Origin: Octopus vulgaris
Lineage: Eukaryota
Reading direction: 5' to 3'
Length of the DNA: 64,000 bases
Assembly (NCBI GenBank): GCA_951406725.2
Contig: OX597817.1
Coordinates: 164,052,001 to 164,116,000 of the forward strand
Of this stretch, positions 6,956 to 57,838 are shown one piece after another (the stretch's first letter is position 1; every line of letters begins with the position of its first letter). The position numbers and the translations under genes are program-made. The notes beneath the pieces are model-generated. The model did not search any database. It worked only from the letters and a program-made list of their open reading frames with translations, and was not told where the DNA came from.

Positions 6956-6989
<34 letters not shown>

Positions 6990-7602
6990 ATGTGTATTTA
7001 CACACACACACACACACAAATTCTCTGAGATACATTGAAAATTCTGGTTTCAGCTGTTTCAAGTGCTACCTTTGTCGCGCATTAGTTGACCGAAATTTCT
7101 GTAAAAATGTTTTTATCCCAATAGTTGATAGTTTTGTGCGTGTGTAAGGACGTGTATATTCACACGCGTACACTCTTTTTGTGTGTGTGTGTGCAAATTT
7201 TGCATATCCGTTACAAAGAATATAAACGTTCTGTTGTTACAAATCTGGCATTTAAGCAGAATTAGCATGGCACTCAGTCGGCCATTGTCAATCTGCCAGG
7301 CAACGCCGGGTATTAGTTTGTGCATGCGTGTATATGTGTGCATGTGCTTGCGTGTATGTGAGGAGAGAAAGGAAAAGAAAGCAAAAGGAGAAAGGAGGAA
7401 ACTATGAGTAGCGACTCATGCGTACTCAGAGTTTTACAATATATGTGTATATGTGTGTGTGTGTATCTATTCGTCGTAGTGTTAGTTTAAAATAGCAATT
7501 TATAGACCATACTCAAAGTAGATACATCTTTGAAAGCCTGGTAAACTGTGGTATTCGATCCGAAATAGCATCTCGTTTAACGCTCGTGAAGAATGGAAAT
7601 GT

Positions 7603-7638
7603 CTTTTACGTTTCGAGCCTAGGCTCATCGACAGAAAG
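7603..7638 (-). ncRNA. Degenerate minimal hammerhead motif with the same layout as 21862
   Basis: Minus strand CTTT-CTGTCGA-T-GAGC(CTAG)GCTC-GAAA-CG-TA-AAAG. Core A6 is replaced by T. Confidence 0.5.
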
Positions 7639-10222: not shown

Positions 10223-11096
10223 TATATATTTATGTATGATTTTATTTCTACATGTTTTCTATAGCGTTCAGAGCCAACACTGAATGTTACGGCGTTACAA
10301 ATACAAATATGTATATGTAAACAATGCGATCAAATATAGAACAATACTTAATGCGTGTATATGCATATTTCAAGAGTTATTGCTCTTTCATCAGCACCGC
10401 GTCCCACACATCGAATATACACGAATGCATTGCTTAAATACCTACTAAGTTTAGCGGTGTAACAGTATTGGATAGACCAATTTACATATCAACTGCTAGC
10501 AAGAACACAGTATTTTATTTTTAACCATAATATACTAACAAGTATATTAAAGGAATACGTTTAATACGTAAATTGGTTTATCCAGTAGTGTAACTTTCAA
10601 TGCTTGCTTTGAGCTATACAGAAAATTTGTGGAGATAAACTTCAAAATGAGAACATCGCACTGCTAACACAAGGTAAAACACAATATTGACTTGTAAGCC
10701 TTTACTGTACTTGGTAGTATATTATGGTCGCAAAACAGAATGTGCCCTTGCAAGCAATTATATACATGAGGAGCGTCGCTTAGTAGTTGCGATATTCGAC
10801 TCAGGATTATAAGGTCATGAGTTCAATTCCCGGCGACGCGTTGTGTCTCTGAGCAAGACACTTTATTTTCATGTTTCTCCAGTCCCCTCAGCTGACAAAA
10901 ATTAGTAGTACCTGTATTTCAATGTGCCAGCCTTGTCACACTCTGTGTCACGCCGAATCTCCCTGAAAACTGCGTTAAGGGTGCACACGTTCGTGGAATG
11001 CTCAACCACTTGCACGTTAATTTCACGAGCAAGCTGTTCCGTTGATCGTATCAGCTGGTACCCTCGTCTTCGTAACCGACGGAGTGCTGCTCCTTT

Positions 11097-11163
<67 letters not shown>

Positions 11164-11400
11164 ACATACATACATATATACATATACACATGCATACATA
11201 CGTACGTACGTACGTACATACATATATACATACATACACACACACATACATACATACATACATACACACACATACATACATACATACATACATACATACA
11301 TACATACATACATACATACGTACATGACACCTAAAGAATATTACAGCCGAATAAAGAAAATGCGAGCAAGAGAAATAATGTTCTTAGAATTTTAATCTCT

Positions 11401-12660
11401 GCATTCAATAAAACAGTGGCCCACAATGTGTTTGCAGTGCCAGTTCTCATACCAACATTTGGCTGCTTCATTGGACGCTTGATGAGATCCGAGCCATTAA
11501 TGTGAAAACCCGAAAAATACTAACAATCATACATAATTTCCACATAAACAGTGACGTAGACCGCCTCTACCTAAAACGTAGACAAGGCGGCAAAAGCTTA
11601 ACATCGATCCAAAATGCCTTTAAATGTCACATCATATCCCGTCGGCAACATCTTTTAACCACCAAGCGCCGAAGTGTATCCCTTGACCAAGTTTGCATAC
11701 ATGAGGTTAATAACATCATAAGACTTGGAAGGCAGCTCCTTAAGCAACACTCTTTGTTTGATAAGCTAGAATACATGCCCAAAGAAGTCGCACGACTGTA
11801 CCGTAACGTATTATCAGATGAAAGGATGAGCCTATATGAGCAGATGACTATGCATGGATATGTTAGTAGAAAGCTCCTTGATGATAGTAACAACGATCAT
11901 CAAAGCAGTTTATCATGGACGAATAGCCGGATTACTACCTCCCGCTTTGAAGGGTATGCGTTTGCAATCCAGGAACAGGAAATATCAACCAATGGATAAA
12001 AGGGATAAAGATGCGGGAAAAGCCGTAAAATGTGACAACCGGTGCAAACATTGTGGAGTTCACACTGAAGATATCTCCCACGTCATAAGCAGTTATACGA
12101 AAATGGCATCACGGTATTATCTACCGATGAGACATGACATTGTAGCTAGGACACTCTATAATGAAATCCGTCGGAAGGATAATCTCGAGGACAAAGAAAT
12201 AAAAACCGACAACATGGTAGAAAACATACCCACTCATAATGAAAAGTACCAGTGAAGACCTCGATAAAATGTAAGCGCAACAGACCTGATATAGAGAAAC
12301 TGTGCACAGTATGGAAATTAGCTGCCCAGCGGATGTTAACATAAAGCTGAAGATCAATGGAAAAGAGAACACCTATGCTGAACTACTGAGAAATCTGCAG
12401 TTATTCTATCCAGATTACAAGTTCAGGTTCATGCCTGTAATTATTGGAGCTTTGAGATATGTAACACACTGCCTAGATACCAATCTTGAGAAATTAGGCT
12501 TCTCAAAACCAGAAAGGGGAAAGCTAATTCGAAGACTACAGATCCAACCCATCACTGGAACTGTAAAAATTTATAAAACTTTCCAGAAGTTTATCATTTA
12601 AATATATATGAGCGTGTCTAGATATGTAACTATATGCATGAGAAGACATTAATACATACA
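11401..12660 (+). mobile_element. R4/Dong-clade non-LTR retrotransposon, 5'-truncated and degenerate
   Basis: VDRLYLKRRQGG, FAIQEQEI, Zn knuckle CKHC-x8-H, RHDIVAR, RPD, EISCP, PVIIGAL (restriction-like endonuclease); ends in (TACA)n. Confidence 0.85.
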
Positions 12661-13946
12661 TACACACACACATACATACATACATACATACATACATACA
12701 TACACACACATACATACATACATAGATATATATATATATACATACATACATATATATATACATATATATACATACATACATACATACATATATACATACA
12801 TATATATATATATAAGTTCGTTTACAGGAAATGTTTTTGAGCACGGGTTTAAAAGCTCCTATTTCATTATGCCGGGGATACTACATAACTTCCAACACCA
12901 GTTTTATGGGGCTGTGCCGAGCTGAGCGATACAACGTAAAATAAATATTCTAATGATAATAATATTAATAATAATAATACATGGATGGAATTTATAAAAT
13001 ATTTTAAAATTCCATCCATGGATTACTATTGTAATTACTATATTGTTATTACTATATTACGGCTTTTTTTCAATAAATTTTATTCAACAGAAACAATAAC
13101 AATATTTAACAAAAGCATCTTTAAATGACGGTCTGACCGTCTGTCAAGTAAATGGGACGCAGTAATTGACGTAGACGATGAATATGCTCTGGAATAATCA
13201 TTTAAAGATGTTTTTGTTACATGCTGTTATTGTTTTTGTTGAACAAAATTTGTTGAAAAAAGCCGCAATAATTATGCACCAACCCAAATACACACACACA
13301 CACAGATAGAATAAGCAGCAAACCTTCAAATAAATTCTGGCGTAGATTCGTTCAACTAAGAAATCTTCAAGGTGTTGCTCCAGCATATCGTCAGTCCAAT
13401 AACTGAAACAAGTAAAAGATAAAAGATAACTCAATGTAGTCAACTGACTTTTGTAAAACAAGAAAATATAAACACATTCTCAAAGGATATTATGTACACT
13501 TCACTTATTATTGATATCGCATAACCAACTTGTTATCATTCACTGTTGTATTTTCAAAGTTATATTTCTTAACCTGCACATTTATGATTGATGTTGTAAA
13601 CTAAGATCTGTCGCATTTATGATTGATGTTGTAAACTAAGATCTGTCGCATTCTTTGTTTGAATTCTGTCATATTTCAAACCCTATACGGACGAACTTTG
13701 TCTGTTTAATTAATATTGAATTAATGTACCAACAAGACCGGAAGATGTCTATTTTCTGTTGGCATATAGGAAATAAAGGAAAACTGATATATAATTTATA
13801 TTTGGTGCTGTCATCTCCCACCATTTCTTTAATTTCCTAAAGCTCCAATACTTTCAATTTCCAACACACACGCACACACACACACATGCACGCACACATG
13901 CACACACACACAAATGCACTCAATTATGTATAAACAAAATGCACTC

Positions 13947-13987
<41 letters not shown>

Positions 13988-14073
13988 TATATTATATACA
14001 CTCATATATATGTATGTGCATGTATGTGGGCATGTATGTATATATATATATATTTGTGTATGTGCGTGTTTAT

Positions 14074-14184
<111 letters not shown>

Positions 14185-14751
14185 TACAGAGAGAGATAAG
14201 TATATTGGTAGATAGATAAAATATAGAAATATATTGTGTATGTGTGTGTGTGTTTGTGTGTATGTATGCATGTATGTATGTAAACGTTTGTACATATATC
14301 TGTATGTATAGTAGTGTAGATGATGATAGTGGTTGTAGCCGTGATTGTAGTTGTATTAGTAGTGATGATGATGGTGGTACGAGTGATGCTAGTGATAGTA
14401 GTAGTAGTAGTAATATATGTGTCACCATTATGCACGCGTGCATACGTCTGTGAGTGTTTATACGTGTATTTGTCCATTTATACGTGTATATGCATATTTA
14501 TGCCTGTATGTATGTTCGTGTTTATATGGATGGATGGATGGATGGATGGATGGATGGATGGATCGATCGATCGATCGATCGATCGAAGCACACAGTTACA
14601 AAACAGTTACAAAATGTTCATCTGAGAAGTCATGAACGGAAAGTCAAAAATTCTATTGACAAGAAAGCAGAGGGACGGTAATCATATGTGAAGATAGAAC
14701 AATCATCACGTATGTGCACATGTACATACGTTAATAATAATAATAATAATA

Positions 14752-14824
<73 letters not shown>

Positions 14825-14832
14825 TAATAATA

Positions 14833-15935
14833 GCCCTGATGCAGTACCATCTTAACTGATTGGAAGTGTTATCATGTACATTGTTTTGTCTTAGTATAAA
14901 AGATGGGCTACAGCAAATATTCTGCTCAATACCACAGATTTGCTTGTCAGTTGTTTGACCTTAACCAGTTGAGCATGTCCCTTAGTGGTTGACGATATGT
15001 GCATCTCTGATCACGAGCAGAAGTAGTGGGGGAGCATCATAGCCATGTGTTGAGAGGGATTCTTTGGGGTTTGAATAGTTCACCTCTGGAAACATGGGTG
15101 TTTCATTCAACATCCTTAAACAACCCTTATTCAGGGACCGTTTGAGCGGGTGGGCTACTCAACCTGAAGAAAATTCTAACTGGGCCCCACCTGCAAGGTC
15201 ATGTGCTGTTTATCTTGATATGAGATCACCATGTCGCGCACATATGGTTGTGATGCATGTGCCTGGTGTACCTTTATCAGACGGGTAGTCATGATGGGTA
15301 TATTGGGCTTCGTATATTTTACCCCAGTGTCACTTTGATGGCATGAACTGCTCTCTCACTCAATAATAATAATAATAATAATGATAATAATAATAATGAT
15401 AATAATAGCCCTGATGCAGTACCATCTTAACTGATTGGAAGTGTTATCATGTACATTGTTTTGTCTTAGTATAAAATATGGGCTACAGCAAATATTCTGC
15501 TCAATACCACAGATTTGCTTGTCAGTTGCTTGACCTTAACCAGTTGACCATGTCCCTTAGTGGCTGACGATATGTGCATCTCTGATCATGAACAGAAGTA
15601 GTGGGGGAGCATCACAGCCATGTATTGAGAGGGATTCTTTGGGGTTTGAATAATTCACCTCTGGAAACATGGGTGTTTCATTCAACATCCTTAAACAACC
15701 CTTATTCAGGGACCTTGTGAGCGGGATGGGCTACTCGACCAGAAAAATATCTAACTGGGCCCCACCTGCAAAGTCATGTGCTGTTTATCTTGATATGAGA
15801 TCACCATGTCGCGCACATATGGTTGTGATGCATGTGCCTGGTGTGCCCTTGTCGGACGGGTGGTCACGATAGGTATGCTGGGTTTGTATATTTTACCCCA
15901 GTGTCACTTTGATGGCATGCACTGCTCTCTCACTC
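14833..15935 (+). mobile_element. Two tandem copies (14833-15361, 15408-15935) of a ~530-bp (AAT)n-embedded non-coding repeat; partial copies at 4762-5145, 17406-17965, 18660-18848
   Basis: Shared sequence GCCCTGATGCAGTAC...CACTGCTCTCTCACTC, followed by (AAT)n wherever the 3' end is present. Confidence 0.85.
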
Positions 15936-27843: not shown

Positions 27844-28704
27844 TTTACTATTGAGTATGTGTATATGTGTATGTTATATGTTTCTTTTGCTAAAATAGCC
27901 ATAAAAAAAGAAAGTGTGAGAGAATATACTTAGAGAAATATATGGAAATTTTTTCCTGATTCCGTTTCTGTTCAACTCATAAAATCGTGTCCTGTTGGAT
28001 TATTTTGAATATAAACTACTTGAAAACATCAAACGTCACTCTTCATCTCAAATGTGTACTTAATGTCATTCCTGTAGACAAACTATTCTTGGCAATGCTA
28101 CAAGAGAAAAAAAATAACTTATACAAAATATACAATTACACATTTTTAATCTATCATATTTAGTATAGAAAGAATCAATAATTAATAGTAAGCTAGGGTT
28201 TTGAAACCTAGAAAGTCATATTATTATTGTAAATATACTGAAAGGATGCATGATTATAGATGGGATAAGGGAATTATGTGGTGAGTGGAAAAATATATAT
28301 TTTTTTACTTATAGAATTTTGTTCCAGCTTTCAAATGTGCTGTCATTTTAGAAATATCGAGAACATCAAATGCGCTGGAAAAAATGTCTCAATTTGATTT
28401 AATGACAAGCTGTATGTTCGAGACCTTAAAATACTAAGTTTAACATAGTTTCGCAAATATTCATTTTATTATTTAAGTTAAAAGTAAAGTTCGAGCTGTC
28501 GGGGGCTGCTACTGTCATAAACCTTAGTTTACCATCATCAATTACAACAGATGAAGTAGGGTCCTGTGTGTTGTCGCTCAACCTGCTAAAAATAACTGCC
28601 AAATCTCCTTCAAATCACGTCTTGCTGTTTTCAATAAATACGCTGCCAACAAAGCACGCGGACTTCTGTTTTTGATTCGATGGTCATTCGGAATGCTCAC
28701 AGCA

Positions 28705-38045: not shown

Positions 38046-38620
38046 GACATCCCTAATTGCATAATATTTTTATTTTGTGCTGTTAAATGTTTTAATTCTT
38101 TGTTTTCCTCGCATACTGATTTTCTCTGTTATCTTGGTGCAGTACGGTGGATTAATTTAAGACTTTAGCTCTTATTTCTAGCATCATTATGCTTCGTGCA
38201 AATTTATAATTCATAGCTATTTAATACTATTGCGCCTGCGATCCACCTATGTCACTGCTGGTGATATCATCCACAGATGATATGAACAGTAGTGACGTCT
38301 GATTTCAAATCACAGTGCTTGAATGTTTTGCTTATATATATATATATATATATACATTAAATTTATGCGTCTCGAAACAAACCGATAGAAATCTCTAAAA
38401 AATTCGTTATTACCGTATTGGTCCAATTTCGGGGTTAATTCACAAGAAATTTTCCTCTTCAGCGGCAAATACGCGAGATATAAATGAAATATTTATTCAT
38501 ACCCATGCGCCGAAGATTTTTCTATTTTGGATATATTTGAGGTACTTAAGTCTGCTCGGGACTTGGTGCTTGCTTCTTCCATGGGTATGAATAAGTATTT
38601 CATTTATATCTCGCGTATGT

Positions 38621-38677
38621 GCCGCTGAAGAGGGGGAAATTTTTTGTGAATTAACCCCGAAATTGGACCAATACGGT
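38621..38677 (+). ncRNA. Type I hammerhead motif in the right arm of a fold-back (38355-38733)
   Basis: GCCG-CTGAAGA-GGGG...CCCC-GAAA-TTGG(A)CCAA-TA-CGGT. The minus-strand mirror at 38412-38466 has a shortened stem II. Confidence 0.8.
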
Positions 38678-38889
38678 AATAACGAATTTTTTAGAGATTT
38701 CTATTGGTTTGTTTCGAGACGCATAAATTTAATGGTTATCGACAATTTTTTGTTTCGGCGTATCTGTCATTAGAATTTTTCTTCTGCCCTTATCTTGTAA
38801 ATTATGTATAAATTTTACCTTTAAAGGCATTTTTTGATATGCTGGCCATTGATAAAATTTTTTTCCCGAAAAAATTTTTATCCTATATC

Positions 38890-40430: not shown

Positions 40431-41718
40431 AGAAATATCTAACAAGAGGGGTCAAAGATATCTATAATATAGGAATAACCTGAATATCCTCTAGTAACAT
40501 CAGTGTTGATCGGCATCATTAGAGGAAGCAATATTTTCTGACGATGCAGAATATGTTGCAATTTCCATTCGACAAGCTTTATATAAAATATATAGTAATG
40601 TGTATGTGCATTATATCTGTGTTTGGTATCTATGGTTTCGTGTGAGTTTGTAGATATATGTAGATATCTCTTTTACTCTTTTACTTGTTTCAGTCATTTG
40701 ACTGCGGCCATGCTGGAGCACCGCCTTTAGTCGAGCAAATCGACCCCGGGACTTATTCTTTGTAAGCCCAGTACTTATACTATCGGTATCTTTTGCCGAA
40801 CCGCTAAGTGACGGGGACGTAAACACACCAGCATCGGTTGTCAAGCAATGCTAGGGGGACAAACACACACACACACACACACACACATACACACACACAT
40901 ATATATACATATATACGACAGGCTTCTTTCAGTTTCCGTCTACCAAATCCACTCACAAGGCATTGGTCGGCCCGGGGCTATAGCAGAAGACACTTGCCCA
41001 AGATTCCACGCAGTGGGACTGAACCCGGAACCATGTGGTTGGTTAGCAAGCTACTCACCACACAGCCACTCCTGCGCCTATGTTGCAGAAATTTATTTTT
41101 AATTCACAGATTAAGGCGCAGTGGAGGCGCAATGGCCTAGTGGTTAGGGCAGCGGACTTGCGGTCGGAGGATCGCGGTTTCGAATCCCAGACCGGGCGTT
41201 GTGTGTGTTTATTGAGCGAAAAAAACACCTAAAAGCTCCACGAGGCTCCGGCAGGAGGTGGTGATCCCTGCTGTACTCTTTCACCACTCTAAAGGCGGTG
41301 CTCCAGCATGGCCGCAGTCGAAATGACTGAAACAAGTACAAAAAAAAAAAAAAAATTAATAAAAAGAAGCAATTCATTTCCTATTTTTGGAACCCAGACA
41401 AACGAAACAAAACCCAATTAAAGCAATATGATTTCTGAGGTGGAGAAAAAGTTAACTGCTTGTGTCAAAGATATGAGCTGAATTTGAAATTAAGACTAAT
41501 TAATTTCGACTGGGAAAATATCAAGTCTCGAGGCGTAACCTCATTAAGGAAGGTCTAAATTGAATTGGCTTAAACATACAAGGTGAGAGTTACAGGGAAT
41601 AGGTTAGAGTGGAAATGTGTGTTTGGAGTGAGGTAATATTGGGGTCTGCATACAGAAGTGTTCAAAGTAAACAGGCAAATTTTTTACCTCCCCAAATGTC
41701 AATGTTGACAATGTTCCC

Positions 41719-41870
41719 TATATAAGCAGACTGTATCTTGTTGTTGACTAATGAGAATACTTCGTGTCCAACTTGACTGACCACGACACTAGATCGTTTC
41801 TTAAAGCTTGCTGCTTTTCAATGTAATATAAGAATACACAATAAGCAGGAAATTGATATATCAAAAAAAG
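41719..41870 (+). promoter_or_regulatory. Candidate TATA box and non-coding first exon of the Cys-rich protein gene
   Basis: TATATAAG at 41719 in non-repetitive sequence and an AAG|GTATGA donor at 41870/41871. The ATG exon has a splice acceptor, so an upstream exon is expected. Inference only. Confidence 0.35.
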
Positions 41871-44289
41871 GTATGAATTCTTATTTTCTTCGTGATTCTA
41901 TAATATATTAAATTTTATTCATTCTGTATTTTTTCTTCCTTATGACGTAATTCTCACGTTTTTTCTTTCGTTGCTTTTATTTCTATCAGATTTGTCGCAA
42001 TATGAAATTGATCGATTAGGTTATTTTAAGAATTTTCATAATCTTCATCTTGTACTATGATGCTAGTCACAAAGGCGGCGAGCTAGCAGAAACGTTAGCG
42101 TGCCGGACAAAATGCTAAGCGATATTTCTTCCAGGTCGTTACGTTCTGAATTCAAATTCCGCTGCGGTTGACTGCCTTTCATCTTTTCGGGGTGTCGATA
42201 AATTGAATACTAGCTAAGCATTGGAGTCGATGTAATCGACTTTGGGGCCAGAATTTGAAACCAATATTATGCTATTCAAAACAGTACTTTTTGGGAAAAA
42301 CCAACCTTCCCTTTAGTAGGGGTGAGTATTGAAAAATAATCATACAAATTGCTTTGTTTTGTAAAATTAGTTTTTAAATGTTTAAGATTGTCCATCACCA
42401 TAGCGTAGAAACAAAAATTACTTCGTCGCTCCCGTTTCTCTACAGACATCGATCTATGGATGTTCAAACTAAGCATCAGTTACATCAATTTAACTAGTAT
42501 GGCAGGACATATCAATTTTATGAGCACTATCCCTCCGTCTTTGATTAATTAAAAAAAAAAGTCAGAAGGAAAAAGATATTGCAAGCGTTAGAGGTTTACC
42601 ACATCATCGATTCCACCTCGATAATTGTGTCTGCATCACTCGACACTGACCACCCAAGACTTAATTACTTGACGATTTATTTTTCCATATTGAGGTGAAA
42701 CTTGATATAATCTTATTTCGTGTTTTCTTTGCATCATTTCTCAATAAAATCTCCTATGTTAATAATATATGTACAATTATTTCTTCAACTGATATTTTCT
42801 ATGGCAATATATATTTTTTTCTCTTTGAACTAAGCTAACTTTCTCGTCTATAATTTACTCATTTTTTCCATATAACATTAAAAAGTAGTTGCAATATCTT
42901 ACATTTCTTCACTTCTTTCTATATTTCTGTTCTGCCAACTGACTGTCAGTCGTATATTCCAGTTTTCATTTCCTTCTCCCTTACCTGGTTCGATTTATTT
43001 CTACTCATATTTATCAGAAAATGCTATTGCATCTACTAGTACACTGCATATTGCAAATCTGATATATTTTAGGCTGTCTTTACTTCATACAATAGATAAC
43101 ATAGGTATTATTCATCTGGATTTTTTTTGTTTGTCTACATATATTTTTCCGTGCTGAGTTCAAACGTGATCTTAGCTTCCGCATGCTATCGATATTTTCG
43201 GAAAGAATTTTAGCTTTGTAGTTAGACATTCTATAATGCAACTCTCACCTGGGGCTAGATGCTGGCTTCGTTTTCATACCTATGTTGAGAGAAAAATTAA
43301 TCGATTTCATGTTGAATTTGCTGAAAATGTTCCAAATGACTGCATTTAATAAATAAATGACAAACTAAAAATGTTTGTTCCTTCTCGAACCATGCCTGGC
43401 TCATAAGAGCCGGTTTCCTTGGCGTATAGGTTCCCCACCTAGACGGGACGCCGGTCCGTCGCAGATAAGCTGCAACATGCAGGAGGAAAGTTGTGGCGAA
43501 AGAGTCAGCAGAAGTTCGCCATTACCTTTTGCCGGAGCTGCGTGGAGCTTAGGTGTTTCGCTCATAAACACACACATCACCCGGTTTGAGATTCGAACCC
43601 GCGATCCCTCGACCGCGTGTCCGCTGCTCTAACCACTAGGCCATGTGCCTCCACAAAAAAAATATGAAACAGTCCTAAAATTAACATTAAAAGTGCTTTG
43701 AAGTTTGCAGTTTTATTTTGTGACTGCTTTCATCGTTTTTAACCAGAGACGTTACATATTCACTCATCATGGCAATATCTCAGCGGCCTTGTTAGCTTTG
43801 TCGGTGAAATATTTCCCCGTGCTCCTCACTGATGACATCAAGGTTTTCATGGAGAAAACCAAGATGCGAATACAAGCTAAGTTCTTTTAAAAACACCCAA
43901 CACACACACACTCTTTTACTCTTTGTGTGTGTGTGTGTTTATGTGTCTGTGTATATATGTGTGTGTGTATGAAGTACACTTTTTTTGGTTGTTATAATTG
44001 CTTCTATTGACGCTATTTGTCTTCATGCAATGGAAATATTAATAGCAAATTAATTTCAATTCTCGTGAAAGAAACTTTGAAATACATTTAAACACTCTAG
44101 GTATCTTGTTAAAATCTTATGTGATTTGAATAAAATCTTATGTGCTTGATTTTATGACATATATAAGCCGGTCCTTTCTTTTACATTGGCGAGCTCAAAT
44201 TTTTACTACGATCCCTTAATTAATGAATAATTCCATTTAAAAAGTTCACAAATTTGATAAAAAGAAAAACCCAAACTTGCTATATTTAA

Positions 44290-44705
44290 TTCGGTTTTCG
44301 TGCCTACGATCGTGAATGTTGGGTAGTGACCGAAAGAGTATGATTGTGAATACAAGGGGCCGAAATAGGGTTCCTTCGAGAGATCTCTGAGGTATCGTTA
44401 CTCTTTAGAATGGGTAGCTCGGCGATCAGGGAATCTTTCCAGGTCGTGTTTCTCCGCATTGACAGATCACAGCTCCGGTACAAGTGACACGTGATTAGAA
44501 TGTCGCAAGAACGGATCTTAAGACGGATTGATTAAACTTATCTAACCGGCAGGAGGCCTACGGGTAGACCAAGAATTAGACGGGTGGATGATATCCATAG
44601 TCTCAGTTCGTTACGCTTAAGAACCCAGCTGAAAAATTGTAACGACGGTTACTTCTGAAAGGGCCCTATGCAGGAGGTGCCTGAAGACTCTACCCAACAA
44701 TCCTT
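44290..44705 (+). mobile_element. RTE-clade LINE 3' fragment (mirror copy at about 47705-48120)
   Basis: Broken translation ECWVVTER...IQGAEIGFLREI...HVIRMSQER...PTGRRPTGRPRIR.VDDI. Confidence 0.65.
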
Positions 44706-44959
44706 ACAGGAATGGTCGGTGGAGGAGATGGATGGACAACATCCTGATTCTGGATGTTATTTTAAAATAATTAGTACAAATACAGACATAGAAGCACACA
44801 CACACACACACACATGTATATAGATATATGCGCATATATATATATATATATATATACATGTGTATATGTTTGGGTGTGTGTATATATATATATATATGTA
44901 TGAATATATGTATATGCATATATATATCTGTATGTATGTATGTATATATATATATGTAT

Positions 44960-44990
<31 letters not shown>

Positions 44991-44991
<1 letters not shown>

Positions 44992-45495
44992 CGTAAATCC
45001 TGGAGTATAGTCCGCCCTTGACTATAATACGCAGAGGATTTTTAGGGGGCTAAACCTTCTGTATAATACGCACCCCTTCCCTAACTTGAGTCAAGGAGGT
45101 CTATATAACGTCCTTGGTTTATAAAAAAGGTATATGGTAACGTCCTTTATTATTATTGTATATATAACATAATGCAAACGTGTAGCTTTTTTGTGCATTT
45201 CGTTTGCAGAAATTAAAGAAAAACAGTAATAACAGTAATGACGTTTAATAAATGTTGCATACTGCAAGTTATGGATGATTTTTTTATGACTTCATTACTT
45301 TCAGACAATGAAGTCATAAGGTATTTTCGCGCTTGACATCACAAATGCATCTGAATAAAAATTGCTGGACAGCAAATGGAGACTCGGACATTGCTTAGAA
45401 AATAATTTTCATTTTTAACCTCGTATATAGTACGGACTAGGGATTTTGACTATTAAATTTTGGGGAAAAAATGCGAATTATACTCGAGGGTTTAC

Positions 45496-45497
<2 letters not shown>
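44991..45497. mobile_element. Tc1/mariner-pogo type MITE (second copy at 46878-47383)
   Basis: TIRs CCGTAAATCCT(G/C)GAGTATA...TATACTCGAGGGTTTACGG flanked by TA; non-coding. Confidence 0.8.
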
Positions 45498-45559
<62 letters not shown>

Positions 45560-45948
45560 TTATTTGAGGGAATAAAATCCAAACTTACAAGGAAAAATAA
45601 TTCAAATTAGAAATACTAAATCAAATTCCACACAATATAATATATATATATATATAAAATATTAGAAAAAAACACCTTTCAAATTAGAAATACATCAATT
45701 AAAATGAATAATTAAATTACACCATCCAGAAAATTACATTTAACAGAAAAGTTAAAATTACTTTTACTTGTTTCAGTCATTTGACTGCGGCCGTGCTGGA
45801 GCACCGTCTTTAGTCGAGCAAATCGACCCTAGGACTTATTCTTTGTAATCCTAGTACTTATTCTATCGGTCTCTTTTGCCGGACCGCTAAGTTACGGAGA
45901 CGTAAACACACCAGCATCGGTTGTCAAGCGATGTTGGGGGGATAAACA

Positions 45949-46029
<81 letters not shown>

Positions 46030-46484
46030 ACATATATACGATGGGCTTCTTTCAGTTTCCGTCTACCAAATCCATTGACAAGGCTTTGGTCGGCCCGAGG
46101 CTATAGTAGAAGACACTTACTCAAGGTGCCACGCAGTGGGACTGAACCTGGAACCATGAGGTTGGTAAGCAAGCTACTTACCACACAGCCACTCCTACGC
46201 CTATGTTCATATAAGTTATAATAATGCTTGCCACCAACTCCCTGAACTTAAAACTTTTGTGAATGCGATGTACCATGTTGAAGTCGGAGAAATCTGAAAG
46301 AAAATTAACATAGCTGAAAGAGAAGCATGATGTACATTTTGCACTGTATTAGATAGCTCGTTCACTTCATTAAAAATCTACTAACCCCCTCGCAAATTAA
46401 ATGGCTTAACACTGAAATCATAATTCTATGATAAAAATTCTTAATCCTTTTATTTTCCTTTTACAGTTTCCAGTTCCATTCAAC

Positions 46485-46572
46485 ATGATCAATAAAAGCG
46501 GTTGTTTAACTATTTTTATAGTTTTTTGCTATTTGGCCAATGTTGGAGTATTTTCCTTTCATTATCGCAGTG
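46485..46572 (+). CDS. First coding exon of a secreted Cys-rich protein gene; signal peptide MINKSGCLTIFIVFCYLANVGVFSFHYRS(G)
   Basis: Pyrimidine tract with AG acceptor (46466 or 46473), CAACATG start context, basic-then-hydrophobic N-terminus, GTATGT donor at 46573. Ends in phase 1, matching the 50806 exon (G+GT = Gly). Confidence 0.7.
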
Positions 46573-46865
46573 GTATGTCAACTTTTATCCGTTTTCTGTT
46601 TCCTTTATACATCGTTAGGACTTTCATATATATATATACATATACACAAAACATTTTAGAAAAAAACACCTTTTATCAATTCAAAATGAATAATCAAATT
46701 ACACCATCTAGAAAATTACATATAATAGAAAAGTTAAAATTAAAATAACAATAAAAAGTAAAGATTAAGTAGATTACAAAAATAATATAATGTATATTAT
46801 ATACATTATATTATTTTTGTAATTTACTTAATCTTTACTTTTTATTGTTATTTTAATTTTAACTT

Positions 46866-47383
46866 TATATATATATACCGTAAACCCTCGAGTATAATTC
46901 GCATTTTTTCCCCAAAATTTAATAGTCAAAATTTCTATTGCGTACAATATACGAGGTTGAAAATGAAAATTATTTTCTAAGCAATGTCCGAGTCTCCATT
47001 TGCTGTCCAGCAATTTTTATTCAGATGCATTTGTGATGTCAAGCGCGAAAATACCTTATGACTTCATTGTCTGAAAGTAATGAAGTCATAAAAGAATCAT
47101 CCATAACTTGCAGTATGCAACATTTATTAAACGTCATTACTGTTATTACTGTTTTTCTTTAATTTCTGCAAACGAAATGCACAAAAAAGCTACACTTTTG
47201 CATTATGTTATACATACAATAATAATAAAGGACGTTACCATATACCTTTTTTATAAACCAAGGACGTTATATAGACCTCCTTGACTCAAGTTAGGGAAGG
47301 GGTGCGTATTATACACAAGGTTTAGCCCCCTAAAAATCCTCTGCGTATTATAGTCAAGGGCGGACTATACTCGAGGATTTACG

Positions 47384-47426
<43 letters not shown>

Positions 47427-47570
47427 CATATATATATATATACATACATACATACAAATATATATATATATGCATATACATATATTCATACATATATATA
47501 TATATACACACCCAAACATATACACATGTATATATATACATATATATATATGCGCATATATCTATATACA

Positions 47571-47622
<52 letters not shown>

Positions 47623-48493
47623 TCTATGTCTGTATTTGTACTAATTATTTTAAAATAACATCCAGAATCAGGATATTGTCCATCCATCTCCTCCACCGAC
47701 CATTCCTGTAAGGATTGTTGGGTAGAGTCTTCAGGCACCTCTGCATAGGGCCCTTTCAGAAGTAACCGTCATTACAATTTTTCAGCTGGGTTCTTAAGCG
47801 TAACGAACTGAGACTATGGATATCATCCACCCGTCTAATTCTTGGTCTACCCGTAGGCCTCCTGCCGGTTAGATAAGTTTAATCAATCCGTCTTAAGATC
47901 CGTTCTTGCGACATTCTAATCACGTGTCACTTGTACCGGAGCTGTGATCTGTCAATGCAGAGAAACACGACATGGAAAGATTCCCTGATCGCCGAGTTAC
48001 CCATTCTAAAGAGTAACGATACCTCAGAGATCTCTCGAAGAAACCCTATTTCGGCTCCTTGTATTCACAATCATACTCTTTCGGTCACTACCCAACATTC
48101 ACGATCGTAGGCACGAAAACCAAATTAAATATAGCAAGTTTGGGTTTTTCTTTTTATCAAATTTGTGAACTTTTTAAATGGAATTATTCATTAATTAAGG
48201 GATCGTAGTAAAAATTTGAGCTCGCCAATGTAAAAGAAAGGACCGGCTTATATATGTCATAAAATCAAGCACATAAGATTTTATTCAAATCACATAGGAT
48301 TTTAACAAGATACCTGAGAGTGTTTAAATGTATTTCAAAGTTTCTTTCACGAGAATTGAAATTAATTTGCTATTAATATTTCCATTGCATGAAGACAAAT
48401 AGCGTCAATAGAAGCAATTATAACAACCAAAAAAAGTGTACTTCATACACACACACATATATACACAGACACATAAACATACACACACACAAA
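46866..48493. repeat. Right arm of the ~1.6-kb inverted duplication
   Basis: Example: GAAGTACACTTTTTTTGGTTGTTATAATTGC at about 43971 versus GCAATTATAACAACCAAAAAAAGTGTACTTC at about 48414. Confidence 0.95.
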
Positions 48494-48851
48494 TACACAC
48501 ACACAACACTAGTAAAAGTTAACAATCTGTAAACTTAACTGAATATGACAAAATTCAGTGTACTAATTACTTGACAGTTCAGAGTAGAATATTTATGCCC
48601 AAAGGTGACGAGCTGACAGAACAGTTAGTGCATCAAAATTCTTAACGGCATTTTTCCCGGCTCTTTTACTCCTTTACTCTTTTACTTGTTTCAGTCATTT
48701 GGCTGTGGCCATGCTGGAGCACCGCCTTTAGTCGAGCAAATCGACCTCAGGACTTATTTTTTGTAAGCCTAGTACTTATTCTATCGGTCTTTTGTCGAAC
48801 CGCTAAGTTACGGGGACGTAAACACACCAGAATATACACACACATACATAT

Positions 48852-50791: not shown

Positions 50792-50805
50792 CTTTATCTC
50801 AAAAG

Positions 50806-50933
50806 GTAAACCACTGTTCCCCTGGTGTCTTGATGTATCAAGGCCTTACTGCGGAATTCGCTGTCCCCTCAGTGGATTTGATACAGATGGACGAACTGGA
50901 TGTCCGACCTGTCGCTGTCGAAATCGTTGCGAG
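50806..50933 (+). CDS. Coding exon, antistasin-like module KPLFPWCLDVSRPYCGIRCPLSGFDTDGRTGCPTCRCRNRCE
   Basis: AAAAG acceptor after a pyrimidine-rich tract, GTAAGG donor at 50934. C-x3-CP-x2-GF-x2-D-x3-GC-x2-CxC spacing is antistasin-like. Starts phase 1, ends phase 0. Confidence 0.85.
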
Positions 50934-50974
50934 GTAAGGTACACTCAACCGAAACTTCTTAATTCTACTATCTG

Positions 50975-51954: not shown

Positions 51955-52330
51955 TTACCTTTACTCCCTCCACTCACTTAGCCATCATTCAAATAGCTCT
52001 TTTGTCTTAATAACGGTCAATCACACAGTAATTTCCCTTTGTTTAACGGTCATTTCTATATATATATATATTTATATATATATATATACAAGATAAGAAA
52101 ATGGAGAAATACATCTAAATCAAATATCAATTACCAGATAATACTCAATCACATACTTTATTAAACCACCACATAAGAGACTGTAGGGTTAAATATAAAA
52201 AGCAGAACAAATCAGTGTACATAAAGGAATGTACATAAAAAAGTGTACATAAAAGAGTAATGTTGTATAAGTAGAATATATATAAAAGAGAATATAAATA
52301 TAAGTAAATATAAATATAAGTATAAATTAC

Positions 52331-52457
52331 ATCTTACAGCTGTTTCGGCCATGTCGATAAGTATGTCTCATTTTACCAATATTAGCCCTTTATGGTTGGT
52401 CAATATATAGATATAAATGAGACATTAACAAAAATATCACAAGGCCTCTTCGGAGAT
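52331..52457 (-). ncRNA. Inverted copy of the same hammerhead (5' inverted terminal repeat)
   Basis: Reverse complement of 56613-56739. Core and junction stems are identical; differences are confined to the stem II extension. Confidence 0.8.
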
Positions 52458-52666
52458 TAGCAGTATATTGGATATATGTTATCCCATAAAGGGTTGCATT
52501 TACAACCCCTATCTCAATTTGTAACTATAGTTAACTTTCTGAGGAATATGAATTGCTAAAGCTTGTATACTTGAAGCATCCACTCATTACTCTAAGTACT
52601 GACAGTGTATGCGAATACACCCAAGTATAGTACATTTATTCCTGAAAGATCATTACTGCTGGTAAA

Positions 52667-53854
52667 ATGGAGAAAATACTAATCAATTCATCAATGAAGG
52701 ATGTACCTATCCCTACTAAGGACCACTACACCAAAGAGCTAATTTATAGAATTAATGAGTTCATTCACAGGATAAGATGGAAGATTTTCCACCACGAAAA
52801 CAGTGATAGCAAAATAAACCAAGAATGTAGGAACGAGGCCACCCGCAATGGTACAGGAAATACCTATGAAGAAATAATCAAACTAACTGGCAACACATTT
52901 AAATCTAGGAAATCTCCACCACCAAATAAACACCTGGATAACTTTGAACAGGAATTATGGGACACCATCAAGAATATAAAATTTAAAAACCACCCATTGA
53001 GGAATAACCCGCACCAGAGGAGGTTAAAGGAACTAATAAGAACTCTTAAGGGTAAGGATGGTATTTTAACCCATTCTGATAAAACTAGAAACATTTATAA
53101 TATTGACATCCTCACATACCATGAACTATTGCATAAAGAAATTACAAAGAAGTATAAAACTGTACCTTTCAATACACTTAGGGAACTAAACTTAGAGATA
53201 AGAGATATAATGTTTGATTATTATCTGGAAGATAAAACCGAACCTTATACCCCCATGAGACCGAGAATTACACTTAAAGACCATAAGGAAAACTTTCTTG
53301 GTAACACTCAGGTCAGACTGATTTGCCCTACAAAGTCAGACTTAGGTAAATTGAGTGAACTTATTCTAGACAAATACTTACCAACTATACGTAACAAGAT
53401 TAAACTCAGCCTATGGAAAAACACCCAGGGTGCATTGGATTGGTTCTCTACAATTCAGGTTAGTAATAGCAGTAGCAATAAATTTATCCAATTTGATATA
53501 CAAAATTACTACTCCTCCATTAACCCTATTATACTAAATAAGGCTTTAATTTTTGCTAAGAAACATACCAACTTAAGTATGGGGGAGATAAAGGTTATCT
53601 TAACAGCTAGAAAAACATTAATAGAGTTTGATAACAAACTACGGGCTAGAAAAGACACACGCAATTTATTTGACATCACCATGGGCTCGCCGGATTCAGC
53701 GGAAGTGACGGATCTAGTGGGGATGTATCTACTTGATAACCTTAATAGGGAATTCCCTGAATTAAAGGGCGGACTATATAGGGACGATGCTTTATTTCTA
53801 GTCAGAAACACTTCTAATAGGAGGCTAGAATTACTGAAAAAAACGACTACATAA
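52667..53854 (+). pseudogene. PLE reverse transcriptase (N-terminal part to the catalytic motif), frameshifted at the A-run near 53840
   Basis: Motifs KDVPIP, RIRWK, SDKTRNIY, TLKDHKENF, VRLICPTKSDLG, FIQFDIQNYYSSI, FDITMGSPDSAEVTDLVG, GLYRDDAL. NYLDV follows in another frame near 53910. Confidence 0.9.
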
Positions 53855-53919
53855 ATTTTTTTAAAGTTTTGGCTTATCCGTAGTTATTGAAAATGAAAAC
53901 TACTCTGCCAATTATTTAG

Positions 53920-55013
53920 ATGTCAATTGCAACCTTTCTAACGGCATTGCTGAAGGCAGGCTACAAAAATAAAATTTGGTATATACCCAATAATAATCCT
54001 TCGAACACAGGTGGAACTATTAGGAGTAGGGATATTAACAATAGGCATAGTAACATTGATAATATTTATGGTAATAATGGAGTTCATCTAAACAATAATA
54101 ATAATAGGAATAAGAATAACAATAAAGTCACTAATAAAACCAATCTAAAGGGGAATTCTAGGCATTATATTGACAATACTAAGGGTAGAAAGCATATGGA
54201 TTGGAAGAATAATAGAGTTTTTCCCAAGAATAACAACTTGAGGAGTAATCCACATAGTGATGACGATACTCTATGGCTAATAATACCATATGCAATGCAG
54301 ATTAAAACCGATATAGTCATAACTATACATAAAGTAATATATAGACTATTTACTAAGGGTAAGAATAAATTTAGCCAAATAATTAACAATAGAACTATTA
54401 GAATAGGATATAGTATCACGAATAATCTAGCACCATCATCTCCTCCTTCAACAACAAGAAATTGGATTGCTTCTATAATGATAGAAAGATAAACATGGGT
54501 AGTAGTGAAAATAAGTGCAATAATATCAACAGAAATAGGGCTACGGAGATTTCTGCCAGGGTTAAATCTCCTCAATCTGTTAATGGCTGCAATTGCAGAA
54601 GCAAGAATCAATGTGTGTTTGGTAATAAATGTCTGAGGAGAGAGGTGGTTTACCAATGCACTGTAAATACACAATATAATAGCAGGGTGTGCATTGGTGC
54701 GACTAAAAATAGTATAAAACAACGGCTAAACTCTCATAGATATACTTTTAAAAATAAAAATAGGATGAACTCTACGGGGTTAAGTACGTATATCTGGGAA
54801 CTCAAGAGTAAGAACATAGATTTTAAATTAGATTGGGAAATACTAACAACTGCACCTGTATACAATAGTAGAAATAAAAAATGCTCTTTATGTATCAATG
54901 AAATTTTCTTCATCATCAAAGCCGGCCAATCCATTATTAACAGCATTAATGAGCGAAATTTTTTTGCCTTCACAAATTGGCGTACACTTTCTCTAAATTT
55001 AAATAACATCTAA
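53920..55013 (+). pseudogene. PLE linker and GIY-YIG endonuclease, broken by frameshifts
   Basis: IRIGYS-x-TNNL linker motif, then CNCR-x4-C-x5-CL-x3-VVYQC...VCIGAT...KQRLNSHRYTF...STGLSTYIWELK...WEIL...CSLCINE. YIG appears as CIG. Confidence 0.85.
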
Positions 55014-55456
55014 TTCTTCTACCAGTAACCTTTTAGCATTCATCTATATAGGACTGTACTATTGGTCCTTACAATTTATAATTTATAACTTTTTTGTCTC
55101 CATGTATTTGTTCTACATTAATTGTTTCTGTCCCGACTGAACCCCACAGAGTCTTTTATAGGTGTAAGATGTATATGCGCATCATATCTTAGGACAGTAG
55201 TTTGAGTTTTTACTATACCAATATGTAATATGTAAGAGTCTATAATTACTATAAGTTGTTTATCTCGATGAGCATATAATGTGGGATTTTCTTCCTTTTT
55301 TACGGTTGGTTTGTTGAGGGTTGTGCGAGGGCGTGCATGCACATGTATGTGCATGTGGGTGCATTCCGGCGTATCCACTTATACTTACTATATTAGGTTT
55401 ATCTTTATGCCCTCTTTAATTTGTATTCCATTTTATTTATCTATTTATCTATACAT

Positions 55457-55503
<47 letters not shown>

Positions 55504-56612
55504 TATTTATATATTTAATTATTTATTTTTGTTTATTTGGCACTTACTAATCTATAATTAATTTAATTTATAATTAATAAACTTATTCTAAATTAATAGT
55601 AACCTCTGTAGGTGTGTGAAAATGTGTATGTGTACGTATATATGTTTTTGTACATATAGGTATGATCGTGGGTGGATGTACGGATGTATGTTTTTATTAC
55701 ACATATGAGCACGCAAGTGCGTACTTGGATGTGTATATATGTATATGCGAATATTCATTCATGGGTGGATATAAATATGGATTTTATTTGTACGTATGAG
55801 TGCGTAGATATATATTTAAATATATATATATGTGTGTGTGTGCGAAAGTTCCCTGACACAGTATAGGAAAGTGTATTAATATTTATGCGTATATGCGGAT
55901 GTGCGTGTGAGTGTGTGTGTTAGTGTTAGACACTGCTGCCTGTACTGATATGTCTATAAGCCATGCGATGACAGACATGCACTCTGCAATTTATTGTAGA
56001 GATGTGTCGGGGTGTATTCATGTGTGTGTACATGTGTGTGTGAGTTTCTGTGTGGATGTGTGGGTTTTGGGTTAGATGTGGATGTGTATGTTTTGCTTGT
56101 ACGGTGTGGTGGAGGTCGGGCGGTTCTCAATTGACCAACCGTGAGGAAGATAATGATAATTTTAAATTCAAATCCAATAGTGTATTTATGTCATAAGGAA
56201 AACTATTAACTGGAACACGGACATACATATATTCCGCTCTGGATCATAATGTAAGTTATTAATAATATTATGAATGATAATGATGATAACATTAATGGTA
56301 TTGACAACGATAATGATGCTAACTTTAATGACACTTTAGAAATTATTATGAAGTAATATAATGTTCTATTGACTATGTACATATGCATCTAAGTACTAAT
56401 TTGTGTATGTTTATTATCACAATATTAAGTCGAAAAACTGAGATATTGGGTGTTTACTAATTTATATTATTTATTTATATCATTATGTAAATGTATATTT
56501 TTATATGTATAAGAGTGTGAGTATATGCACTCATATGTATATGTATATGTTGTATTGTGGGTACGCACCCACACCCATGTGGGTATATATGTAGACTGAG
56601 TTATATTACATA

Positions 56613-56739
56613 ATCTCCGAAGAGGCCTTATGATATTTTTGTTAATGTCTCATTTATATCCATATATTGACCTACCATAAAAGGCTAATATTGGTAAAAT
56701 GAGACATACTTATCTACATGGCCGAAACAGCTGTAAGAT
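56613..56739 (+). ncRNA. Type I hammerhead ribozyme motif with a very long stem II (3' terminal repeat of the PLE)
   Basis: ATCT-CCGAAGA-GGCC...(TGTCTCATTT/AAATGAGACA)...GGCC-GAAA-CAGCTG-TA-AGAT. Stems I, II and palindromic III present; U4C core variant; GUA site. Confidence 0.8.
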
Positions 56740-57154
56740 GTAATTTATACTTATATTTATATTTACTTATATTTATATTCTCTTTTATATATATTCTACT
56801 TATTATACAACATTACTCTTTTATGTACACTTTTTTTATGTACATTCCTTTATGTACACTGATTTGTTCTGCTTTTTATATTTAACCCTACAGTCTCTTA
56901 TGTGGTGGTTTAATAAAGTATGTGATTGAGTATTATCTGGTAATTGATATTTGACTTAGATGTATTTCTCCATTTTCTTATCTTGTATTAGTAATTTGTG
57001 GTAAATCATTTTACTTTTGCCCATATAATACAGTAAATGAATTGATTGCATCGCAATCATTAACATTTATGTATTAACTTTGTTGGGTACTTCACTAGCA
57101 GTATATTGGATATATGTTATCCCATATAGGGTTGCATTTACAACCCCTATCTCA

Positions 57155-57204: not shown

Positions 57205-57619
57205 AAATGGAAAGATGAATTTTCTTGTTACAGATTATTCAAAAGTTTAACCGATACCTGGGTAGCAAAAATCACAGCAGAAAAAACACGGTTGGAGATA
57301 AGACCATATGGTGTTGCAACCGTGCGTTGGTGCGGATAATTGAAGTTTAATATAATTAGTGAATTGAAGAAATGGAGTTGAACGAAGATTGTACAGAATT
57401 CCTTTTATTACATTCTACACATGTTTCAAAGGCCACAATTTTCCAAATTCTGATTAAATAAGGATACCATATTGCAGCTTTCTTTCAGGAAAAACCAGGA
57501 ATTACGTTGTCAGAACAAAACAAAACAGAGGCGCAGCAAAGCAATTCGAACGAGGAAGCTCCTTAAGAGCCCATGGATAAACCTGTTTTGTTTTGTTCTG
57601 ACAACGTAATTCCTGGTTT

Positions 57620-57699
57620 TTCCTGAAGAGAAAGCTGCAATATGGTATCCTTATTTAATCAGAATTTGGAAAATTGTGGCCTTTGAAACATGTGTAGAA
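57620..57699 (+). ncRNA. Type I hammerhead motif in the right arm of a fold-back (57349-57760)
   Basis: TTC-CTGAAGA-GAAAGCTGCAAT...ATTGTGGCCTTT-GAAA-CATGTG-TA-GAA. The mirror at 57414-57491 has lost one core G. Confidence 0.7.
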
Positions 57700-57753
57700 T
57701 GTAATAAAAGGAATTCTGTACAATCTTCGTTCAACTCCATTTCTTCCATTCAC

Positions 57754-57756
<3 letters not shown>

Positions 57757-57838
<82 letters not shown>

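What the first reader, a model, noticed from the sequence alone, without database searches (positions are those of the whole stretch)
43922..48493. Start-codon/signal-peptide exon sits in the loop of a ~1.6-kb near-perfect inverted duplication
Seen: 43922-45500 and 46866-48493 are reverse complements. The arms are a mosaic of unique DNA, an RTE scrap, microsatellites and a MITE, so they are not a single transposon's TIRs. The ~1.36-kb spacer holds the predicted ATG exon (46485-46572). Inference: if transcription starts upstream (candidate exon ending at 41870), the pre-mRNA can form a 1.6-kb duplex that loops out this exon. That would favour skipping or back-splicing and offer a substrate for ADAR, which is highly active in coleoid cephalopods. 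Recombination between the arms would invert the exon and switch the gene off.
Basis: partly seen in the sequence, partly recalled or inferred. Interest (0 to 1): 0.75.

Follow-up and report, generated by a model that had tools for sequence, protein, structure and literature searches.

The report
Backwards intron copy around octopus exon
A 1.6-kb piece of intron in an octopus Kunitz-domain gene sits copied backwards on the far side of the start-codon exon, likely a scar of a DNA-copying slip; the exon is still spliced into the messenger RNA, so this looks like an ordinary passenger rather than a switch.

Summary
Observation confirmed: 43922-45509 pairs with 46866-48493 (23 substitutions in 1,583 aligned bases) around a 1,356-bp spacer. 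The arm has only these two near-identical copies in the genome, so it is a local inverted duplication, not a transposon end. The spacer exon is the start/signal-peptide exon of a single-copy antistasin-Kunitz gene conserved in three octopus species; an RNA contig splices 41870>46467 and 46572>50806, as predicted, with the exon included. No skipped, back-spliced or edited product was listed, but contigs cannot exclude rare ones. In two of three DNA runs the arm contig has about 1.8 times the flank depth, which favours two real copies (a hint only). The right arm cuts off an AT-rich palindromic repeat that continues in 15 of 15 other loci, and both junctions lie in dinucleotide tracts: likely a template switch that copied the left arm backwards. 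Three more two-copy inverted duplications lie in 1.6 Mb sampled, so the kind is common here. This scan noted similar, smaller cases in other genomes. Verdict: real, likely passenger; loop-out skipping possible but unsupported.

The parts
43922..45509 (+). Left arm; likely the original intron-1 DNA (low-copy DNA, old repeat scrap, microsatellites, MITE, first bases of a TA tract)
46866..48493 (-). Right arm; likely the derived, inverted copy, in intron 2
   Evidence: cuts off a palindromic repeat
45510..46865 (.). Spacer (loop), 1,356 bp, in gene orientation: rest of the TA tract, AT-rich repeat fragment, SINE-like repeat, exon, palindromic repeat
46467..46572 (+). Start-codon exon, 106 nt; ATG at 46485; encodes MINKSGCLTIFIVFCYLANVGVFSFHYRS, a hydrophobic signal-peptide-like start (by eye, no predictor run)
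41700..41870 (+). Upstream non-coding exon (its start lies left of 41700, outside the stretch laid)
   Evidence: RNA contig X15 record 1; donor context
50806..50933 (+). Next exon, antistasin domain (PF02822, E 2e-4, above Pfam's cut-off)
44991..45497 (.). MITE with CCGTAAA ends and TA flanks, carried inside the left arm; its copy is 46878-47384
45498..45553 (.). (TA)28 tract: self-complementary, inferred landing site of the first template switch
   Evidence: sequence; role inferred
46645..46866 (.). Member of a genome-wide AT-rich palindromic repeat, cut off at 46866; what remains folds as a hairpin of about 60 bp with a 3-nt loop (predicted -59.9 kcal/mol as DNA)
48494..48518 (.). Outer junction: 17 bases of CA-rich DNA, then 8 bases (48511-48518) that are the reverse complement of 43913-43920; suggestive of a short templated insert
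   Evidence: reading inferred
45416..45442 (.). Cluster of 6 arm differences in 27 bp near the inner junction; 5 are new on the right arm (46933-46959)

Best explanation
The two arms are a local inverted duplication of intron DNA, likely made by a switch-and-return copying error and likely a near-neutral passenger, and the start-codon exon between them is spliced into the mRNA. Inferred steps: DNA synthesis stalled or broke in the AT-rich palindrome at about 46866; the 3' end re-primed on the opposite strand in the self-complementary (TA)28 tract 1.3 kb upstream; it copied about 1.6 kb backwards; it returned to the original template in a CA tract at about 48494, losing the rest of the palindrome. 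Shown: the duplication, its two-copy status in the assembly, the truncation, the dinucleotide tracts at both junctions, and exon inclusion in one RNA run. The pre-mRNA would be able to form a long duplex, probably an ADAR target like other octopus inverted repeats, but the loop is wide and intron 1 is complete 400 nt before the right arm begins to be transcribed.
For: Only two near-identical copies of the arm in 2.8 Gb; next best 74%. The two MITE copies are 98% alike, the 39 other full-length copies scored 85-88%: one insertion duplicated, not two. The palindrome continues past the junction in 19 of 19 rows, 15 distinct loci, but not here. Junctions in TA and CA/TG tracts; a five-change cluster on the right arm 67-93 bp from the inner junction; a possible templated insert at the outer junction. 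Arm contig depth over the median of 7 flank contigs: X2 30/16.9 = 1.78, X4 34.2/19 = 1.80, X8 9.0/6.45 = 1.40. Arm-to-arm divergence 1.45% exceeds the flank differences of X2 (0.28%), X4 (0.46%) and X8 (0.60%) from the window. Spliced RNA contig with the exon included. The same N-terminus in proteins of three species. Three more two-copy inverted duplications in 1.6 Mb.
Against: No listed contig bridges either right-arm junction, and the tool warns that contig depth is no copy number; a few high-copy words at a contig end can inflate it (two X4 flank contigs read 165-172). The X4 and X8 arm contigs carry the left-arm letter at 8 of 9 diagnostic substitution sites (tables 3 and 8), which two arms as diverged as the window's would not give; this needs an absent or heterozygous copy, arm homogenisation, or a right arm with excess change (12 right-derived vs 5 left-derived by repeat-family letters, p = 0.14). 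Exact microhomology at the inner junction is one base. No ancestral single-copy allele was seen. Neutrality rests on one RNA run of unknown tissue.
Confidence: 0.6

Rival explanations
1. Loop-out switch: however it arose, the 1.6-kb duplex makes a sizeable share of transcripts skip or back-splice the start exon, tuned by ADAR, and so lowers output of the secreted protein in some tissues.
For: Both arms lie in the pre-mRNA and would pair very stably. This is the strongest inverted pair around any of the 7 exons checked. In humans inverted Alu pairs are enriched around skippable exons (PMC13019027, abstract and passages). Skipping would remove the ATG; the ATGs left in the modelled part open only short or out-of-frame reading frames, so it would act as an off-switch.
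Against: The one spliced contig includes the exon at depth 66; no skip joint among the rows shown. Splice sites 957 and 293 nt from the stem; long pyrimidine tract. PMC13019027 finds only a small effect of stem stability and ties skipping to weak acceptors. Four of the other 6 exons checked also have weaker inverted repeat pairs around them.
Confidence: 0.12
2. Assembly artefact: the arms are two alleles, or a chimeric read, joined into one haplotype.
For: No listed record spans the structure; X4 and X8 contigs show almost only left-arm letters; no long contig was listed on the right arm.
Against: A fold-back chimera would give identical arms, yet they differ at 23 sites and in several tract lengths. 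Local allele differences (X2 vs window 0.28%) are a fifth of the arm divergence. Arm contig depth is about 1.8 times the flanks in X2 and X4. The right arm shares two states with X4 and X8 against the left arm (T at 44643, an extra base at 44098), so it is not a copy of the present left allele.
Confidence: 0.1
3. Transposase-made: the MITE end at 45497 was cut together with 1.1 kb of flanking DNA and a cryptic end, and re-inserted backwards 1.3 kb away (aberrant local transposition; mechanism recalled, from no call).
For: Both arms end at the MITE terminus plus TA on their inner side. One of the three other duplications also has a MITE-like end (TTACGGTA) a few bases from its inner junction.
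Against: No TIR-like end or target duplication at the outer boundary, which lies in a CA/TG tract; the rest of the palindrome does not follow the insert, as a clean insertion would leave it; (TA)6, not a single TA, precedes the MITE on the right; the family looks old (85-88%). Two of the three other duplications show no MITE end at their junctions.
Confidence: 0.12
4. The left arm is the copy, or both arms are breakpoint duplications of an inversion made by staggered breaks (mechanism recalled).
For: The left outer boundary adjoins a small CA/TG hairpin with a short SINE-head-like scrap, which could itself be a junction.
Against: The right arm truncates a repeat that is whole elsewhere; the spacer exon is in gene orientation and spliced; X4 and X8 contigs resemble the left arm.
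Confidence: 0.06

Closest known systems
Four-point template switch, type 3-2-1-4 (Loytynoja and Goldman 2017, PMC5453318; passages read)
   Same: One switch-and-return event copies a nearby fragment in reverse complement and leaves an inverted repeat with an uninverted spacer; with its mirror type it is 31% of their high-confidence human-chimp events.
   Different: Their events are short and found as mutation clusters; this copy is 1.6 kb with a 1.36-kb spacer and junctions in dinucleotide tracts. They argue for inter-strand switching; the strand used here cannot be told.
Fold-back inverted duplications with a disomic spacer (Hermetz et al. 2014, PMC3907307; passages read)
   Same: Inverted copies separated by a single-copy spacer of a few kb, primed at short inverted homology.
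   Different: Those are large, lie beside terminal deletions and pass through a dicentric chromosome; this one is small and interstitial, and synthesis returned to the same chromosome.
Inverted-Alu loop-out exon skipping (Denisko et al. 2026, PMC13019027; abstract and passages read)
   Same: An inverted pair in the two introns around an exon.
   Different: Arms are one duplicated composite of 1.6 kb at 98.5%, not two SINE insertions; no skipped isoform seen; the acceptor does not look weak.
Long intronic dsRNA as ADAR substrate in octopus (Porath et al. 2017, PMC5625713, passages; Albertin et al. 2022, PMC9068888, passages)
   Same: A near-perfect inverted pair within 2 kb in one transcript, the class those papers tie to hyper-editing; octopus is exceptionally rich in such loci.
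   Different: Editing at this locus is untested; the source is a local duplication rather than two transposon copies.

Membership tests
Template switch, type 3-2-1-4 | Nearby fragment copied in reverse complement | tested here: met
Template switch, type 3-2-1-4 | Spacer keeps its orientation | tested here: met
   exon in gene orientation and spliced
Template switch, type 3-2-1-4 | Order of the four points read against an ancestral sequence | tested here: inconclusive
   inferred from the truncated palindrome; no contig listed across a right-arm junction
Fold-back inverted duplication (Hermetz type) | Single-copy spacer of a few kb | tested here: met
   1,356 bp; single in the window self-comparison, and the gene's next exon is single in the genome
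Fold-back inverted duplication (Hermetz type) | 2-8 bp or more of inverted homology at the spacer junction | tested here: inconclusive
   one exact base, then imperfect TA-rich likeness to the family's continuation
Fold-back inverted duplication (Hermetz type) | Adjacent terminal deletion, translocation or ring | tested here: not met
   the gene continues in order for 28 kb beyond the right arm
TIR or foldback transposon | The same arm at many loci | tested here: not met
   2 near-identical places, next best 74%; contrast
TIR or foldback transposon | Target-site duplication at the outer ends | tested here: not met
   outer flanks differ; boundary in a CA/TG tract
Inverted-repeat loop-out exon skipping | Inverted pair in both flanking introns of one transcript | tested here: met
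Inverted-repeat loop-out exon skipping | A skipped isoform exists | tested here: inconclusive
   only the included form listed, 1 RNA run, contigs only, joint table cut
Inverted-repeat loop-out exon skipping | Inclusion rises when one arm is removed | not testable with these tools
   needs a minigene or a natural single-arm allele
ADAR hyper-edited dsRNA | Long near-perfect duplex possible within one transcript | tested here: met
   predicted duplex -2,755 kcal/mol
ADAR hyper-edited dsRNA | A-to-G clusters in RNA against DNA of the same animal | not testable with these tools
   no raw reads and no matched DNA offered
False duplication in assembly | Arms at or below single-copy depth in other DNA runs | tested here: inconclusive
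   about 1.8x in 2 of 3 runs, 1.4x in the third, which points away from an artefact, but contig depth is no copy number
Kunitz/BPTI and antistasin domain protein (host gene) | Pfam domains above cut-off | tested here: met
   PF00014, 2 stretches, E 1e-34; PF02822 on the isolated exon, E 2e-4, not listed for the whole protein at E 0.01

The most novel reading that the evidence does not exclude
Octopus microsatellites prime kilobase-scale template switches so often that the genome holds thousands of non-transposon local inverted duplications, an undescribed source of the long dsRNA that coleoid ADAR works on; this one, the largest of four found, acts as a tissue-tunable off-switch by looping out the start exon of a secreted protease-inhibitor-like gene.
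Probability: 0.1. Interest if true: 0.65.

Novelty: new member of a known kind. Interest (0 to 1): 0.27.

Why it matters
As a passenger it is a clean, large example of a template-switch scar and little more. Two things give it some use. It is a natural test of loop-out skipping at the extreme: if a 1.6-kb, 98.5% duplex around a start exon does not cause skipping, co-transcriptional splicing or ADAR must outrun it. And the side count (3 more in 1.6 Mb, about 5,000 genome-wide, 95% range 1,100-15,000) suggests a class of microsatellite-bounded inverted duplications that repeat annotation would miss and that could add to the high dsRNA potential reported for octopus (PMC5625713). A full-text search for 'cephalopod' with 'inverted duplications' found 0 papers, and one for octopus, inverted repeat, RNA editing and transposable element listed 9 of 10, none on this by title; the library lacks most subscription papers, so this is weak evidence of absence.

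Tried and rejected
Whole arm as a transposon TIR: rejected. Two independent MITE insertions with conversion spreading outward: rejected, because the clustered differences are not family variants (at 5 of 6 cluster sites the left arm has the family's commonest letter). A suspected frameshift in the exon at 59248: my misreading; the frame is open. The look-up of sequencing runs listed no RNA holder on record and no raw reads; X15 is a guessed RNA run, taken as RNA because its contig joins exons across GT-AG introns. X15 has no or next to no cover over the low-copy parts of the arms: no evidence on editing either way. Hidden rows (3,482 joints, 50 letters, 482,658 pieces) could not be seen, among them the four differences of the X2 arm contig. 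Base-rate scan: 31 of 38 inverted pairs were dropped as pairs of dispersed repeats without a test each; 3 of the 6 other low-copy-looking pairs proved to be multi-copy families. Earlier notes on this genome and look-alike stretches: none. Paper searches for loop-out skipping, octopus genome heterozygosity and octopus Kunitz-antistasin proteins were seen as listings only; only PMC9068888 was opened. PMC10766186 (ODIRA): abstract and outline only, not used further. No supplements were opened.
Full report
Observation. The inverted pair is there: 43922-45509 against 48493-46866, 95.5% over 1,633 columns and far the best self-match in the window. Base by base there are 23 substitutions against 1,560 matches (1.45%); the remaining loss of identity is microsatellite length. 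The spacer is 1,356 bp. A 741-bp piece of the arm finds two near-identical places in the 2.8-Gb genome, the two arms; the other 38 of 40 scored matches are partial and 69-74% alike. The MITE inside the arms has thousands of candidates, but the 39 other full-length copies scored are 85-88% alike against 98% between the arms. So one stretch of ordinary intron, with its old insertions, was duplicated once, locally and backwards.

The gene. The spacer exon and the exon at 50806 belong to a single-copy gene for a 284-aa protein with an antistasin domain and two Kunitz domains. Its cluster holds proteins named from Octopus vulgaris, O. sinensis and O. bimaculoides, 5 of 6 with this same N-terminus (the sixth is a fragment without it); the window's exons match the O. 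vulgaris record P0006 and run in order to 28 kb beyond the right arm. In run X15 one contig of 1,211 bases at depth 66 lies in three pieces, 41700-41868, 46465-46571 and 50805-50934. The exon is real, transcription starts upstream of both arms, and the main product in this run includes the exon.

Is the duplication real? Only contigs were on offer; I laid 4 of 24 runs. No listed record spans the structure. In each DNA run one contig covers 43977-44783. Its depth over the median of the 7 listed flank contigs is 1.78 in X2 (same organism label as the best holder, another sample and study code), 1.80 in X4 (organism B) and 1.40 in X8 (organism D), as two collapsed copies would give in the first two. 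The tool warns that contig depth is no copy number, and two X4 flank contigs at 165-172 show how far it can stray. Flank contigs differ from the window by 0.28%, 0.46% and 0.60%, well below the 1.45% between arms, which speaks against two alleles misjoined; a fold-back chimera would give identical arms. One result does not fit simply: the X4 and X8 contigs carry the left-arm letter at 8 of 9 diagnostic substitution sites. Either those animals lack the diverged right arm (or have it on one chromosome), or their arms were homogenised, or the window's right arm changed faster. Repeat-family letters agree that most changes are on the right arm (12 vs 5, p = 0.14). I put the structure at about 85-90% real.

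Which arm is new, and how. Next to the right arm lies a member of a genome-wide AT-rich palindromic repeat. In 19 of 19 rows (15 distinct loci) the palindrome continues past the point that corresponds to 46866; here it stops and is followed by (TA)6 and the MITE, and the missing part does not reappear after 48493. The right arm therefore likely overwrote it. The matching inner end of the left arm runs into a (TA)28 tract, which is its own reverse complement, and the outer ends lie in TG/CA tracts, with 17 CA-rich bases and then an 8-base match to 43913-43920 on the right. Five right-arm changes cluster 67-93 bp from the inner junction. The simplest reading, inferred: synthesis stalled or broke in the palindrome (hairpin predicted at -59.9 kcal/mol), re-primed on the opposite strand in the TA tract, copied 1.6 kb backwards and returned in a CA tract. 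This has the geometry of a 3-2-1-4 template switch (PMC5453318, passages) at the spacer scale of human fold-back duplications (PMC3907307, passages), without their terminal deletion. Exact homology at the inner junction is one base and no ancestral allele was seen, so aberrant transposition from the MITE end stays a rival.

How ordinary. I took eight 200-kb blocks at round coordinates of my choosing (one 250 kb from the window) and scanned them with the window block for inverted pairs of 300 bp or more, 85% or more, within 8 kb: 38 pairs, 7 with at least 150 low-copy bases, ours among them. Of the 6 others, 3 are multi-copy families and 3 are two-copy duplications. Three in 1.6 Mb scales to about 5,000 in the genome (95% range 1,100-15,000). 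Six of the 8 junctions of the four events have a microsatellite on at least one side, against 11.5% of random positions; the numbers are small and alignments tend to end in simple repeats. Ours is the longest of the four. Four of 6 other exons of this gene also have an inverted repeat pair around them within 5 kb, all shorter and weaker.

Function. The arms would pair in the pre-mRNA (predicted -2,755 kcal/mol), and octopus is known for abundant near-perfect dsRNA and for editing in intronic repeats (PMC5625713; PMC9068888; passages), so editing of the arms is likely but untested. Skipping would delete the ATG and leave short or out-of-frame reading frames, a loss of function for a gene whose start is conserved in three species. 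Against a strong effect: the exon is included in the RNA contig, the splice sites are 957 and 293 nt from the stem, the acceptor has a long pyrimidine tract, and intron 1 is complete 400 nt before the right arm begins. In humans, inverted Alu pairs are enriched around skippable exons but act mainly on weak acceptors, with a small effect of stem stability (PMC13019027, abstract and passages). Contigs drop rare forms and one run is one tissue, so partial or tissue-specific skipping is not excluded. Inversion of the spacer by arm-to-arm recombination is possible in principle; nothing here tests it.

Verdict. A real, likely template-switch inverted duplication around a real start exon; a new member of a known kind, most likely a passenger. 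Earlier notes of this scan describe smaller cases in other genomes with the same reading (unchecked, seen after I had formed mine and found the template-switch paper). Interest 0.27; the bolder reading, a common microsatellite-primed class feeding ADAR with this copy as a tunable off-switch, has about 0.1 probability.

Noticed in passing
G000:C4:163837183-163837895 vs 163838372-163839086; C12:30026659-30027010 vs 30030563-30030916; C25:15021733-15022065 vs 15026004-15026338: Three more two-copy local inverted duplications (720 bp 91%, 354 bp 92%, 339 bp with no substitutions; spacers 476, 3,552 and 3,938 bp), each with at least one junction in a microsatellite. The C25 pair looks very young.
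   Followed up: partly
G000:C12:30023926-30026596 (L134): A young family of elements with long inverted ends (650 bp or more, 98-99% alike in 40 of 40 scored places), often as inverted pairs about 2-8 kb apart; this copy has a microsatellite-filled interior and TA-tract flank. Looks like an active foldback-type transposon (label recalled).
   Followed up: partly
window 52086-56988: Element with 378-bp inverted ends at 97% and long RT-like and GIY-YIG-like coding sequence between them, read by eye; Penelope-like by recall, no family search run.
   Followed up: no
window 46645-46866 and 45553-45760: Genome-wide AT-rich palindromic repeat of about 300 bp, flanked by TA tracts (83 matches from 40 scored candidates); two fragments of it bound the spacer in the same orientation.
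   Followed up: partly
window 46933-46959: The clustered right-arm changes make a slightly better small hairpin than the left-arm version (-3.7 vs -2.6 kcal/mol), as quasi-palindrome correction would. Overall 12 right-derived vs 5 left-derived changes (p = 0.14), 14-15 vs 5 with run letters added (p = 0.04-0.06).
   Followed up: partly
window 41700-42098: In run X4 the contigs over the non-coding exon have depth 165-172 against about 18 elsewhere, and 4 extra bases behind 41804: local amplification in organism B or inflation by repeat words.
   Followed up: no
window 28246-28281 and 42283-42321: An annotated longer isoform (P0004) uses upstream coding pieces here and the same acceptor at 46467, so it too includes the looped exon.
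   Followed up: partly
window 57350-57762, 38355-38734; G000:C1:100004836-100006009; C9:50064099-50068073: Further self-palindromic or internally inverted repeats: near-perfect dsRNA potential is common in this genome.
   Followed up: partly
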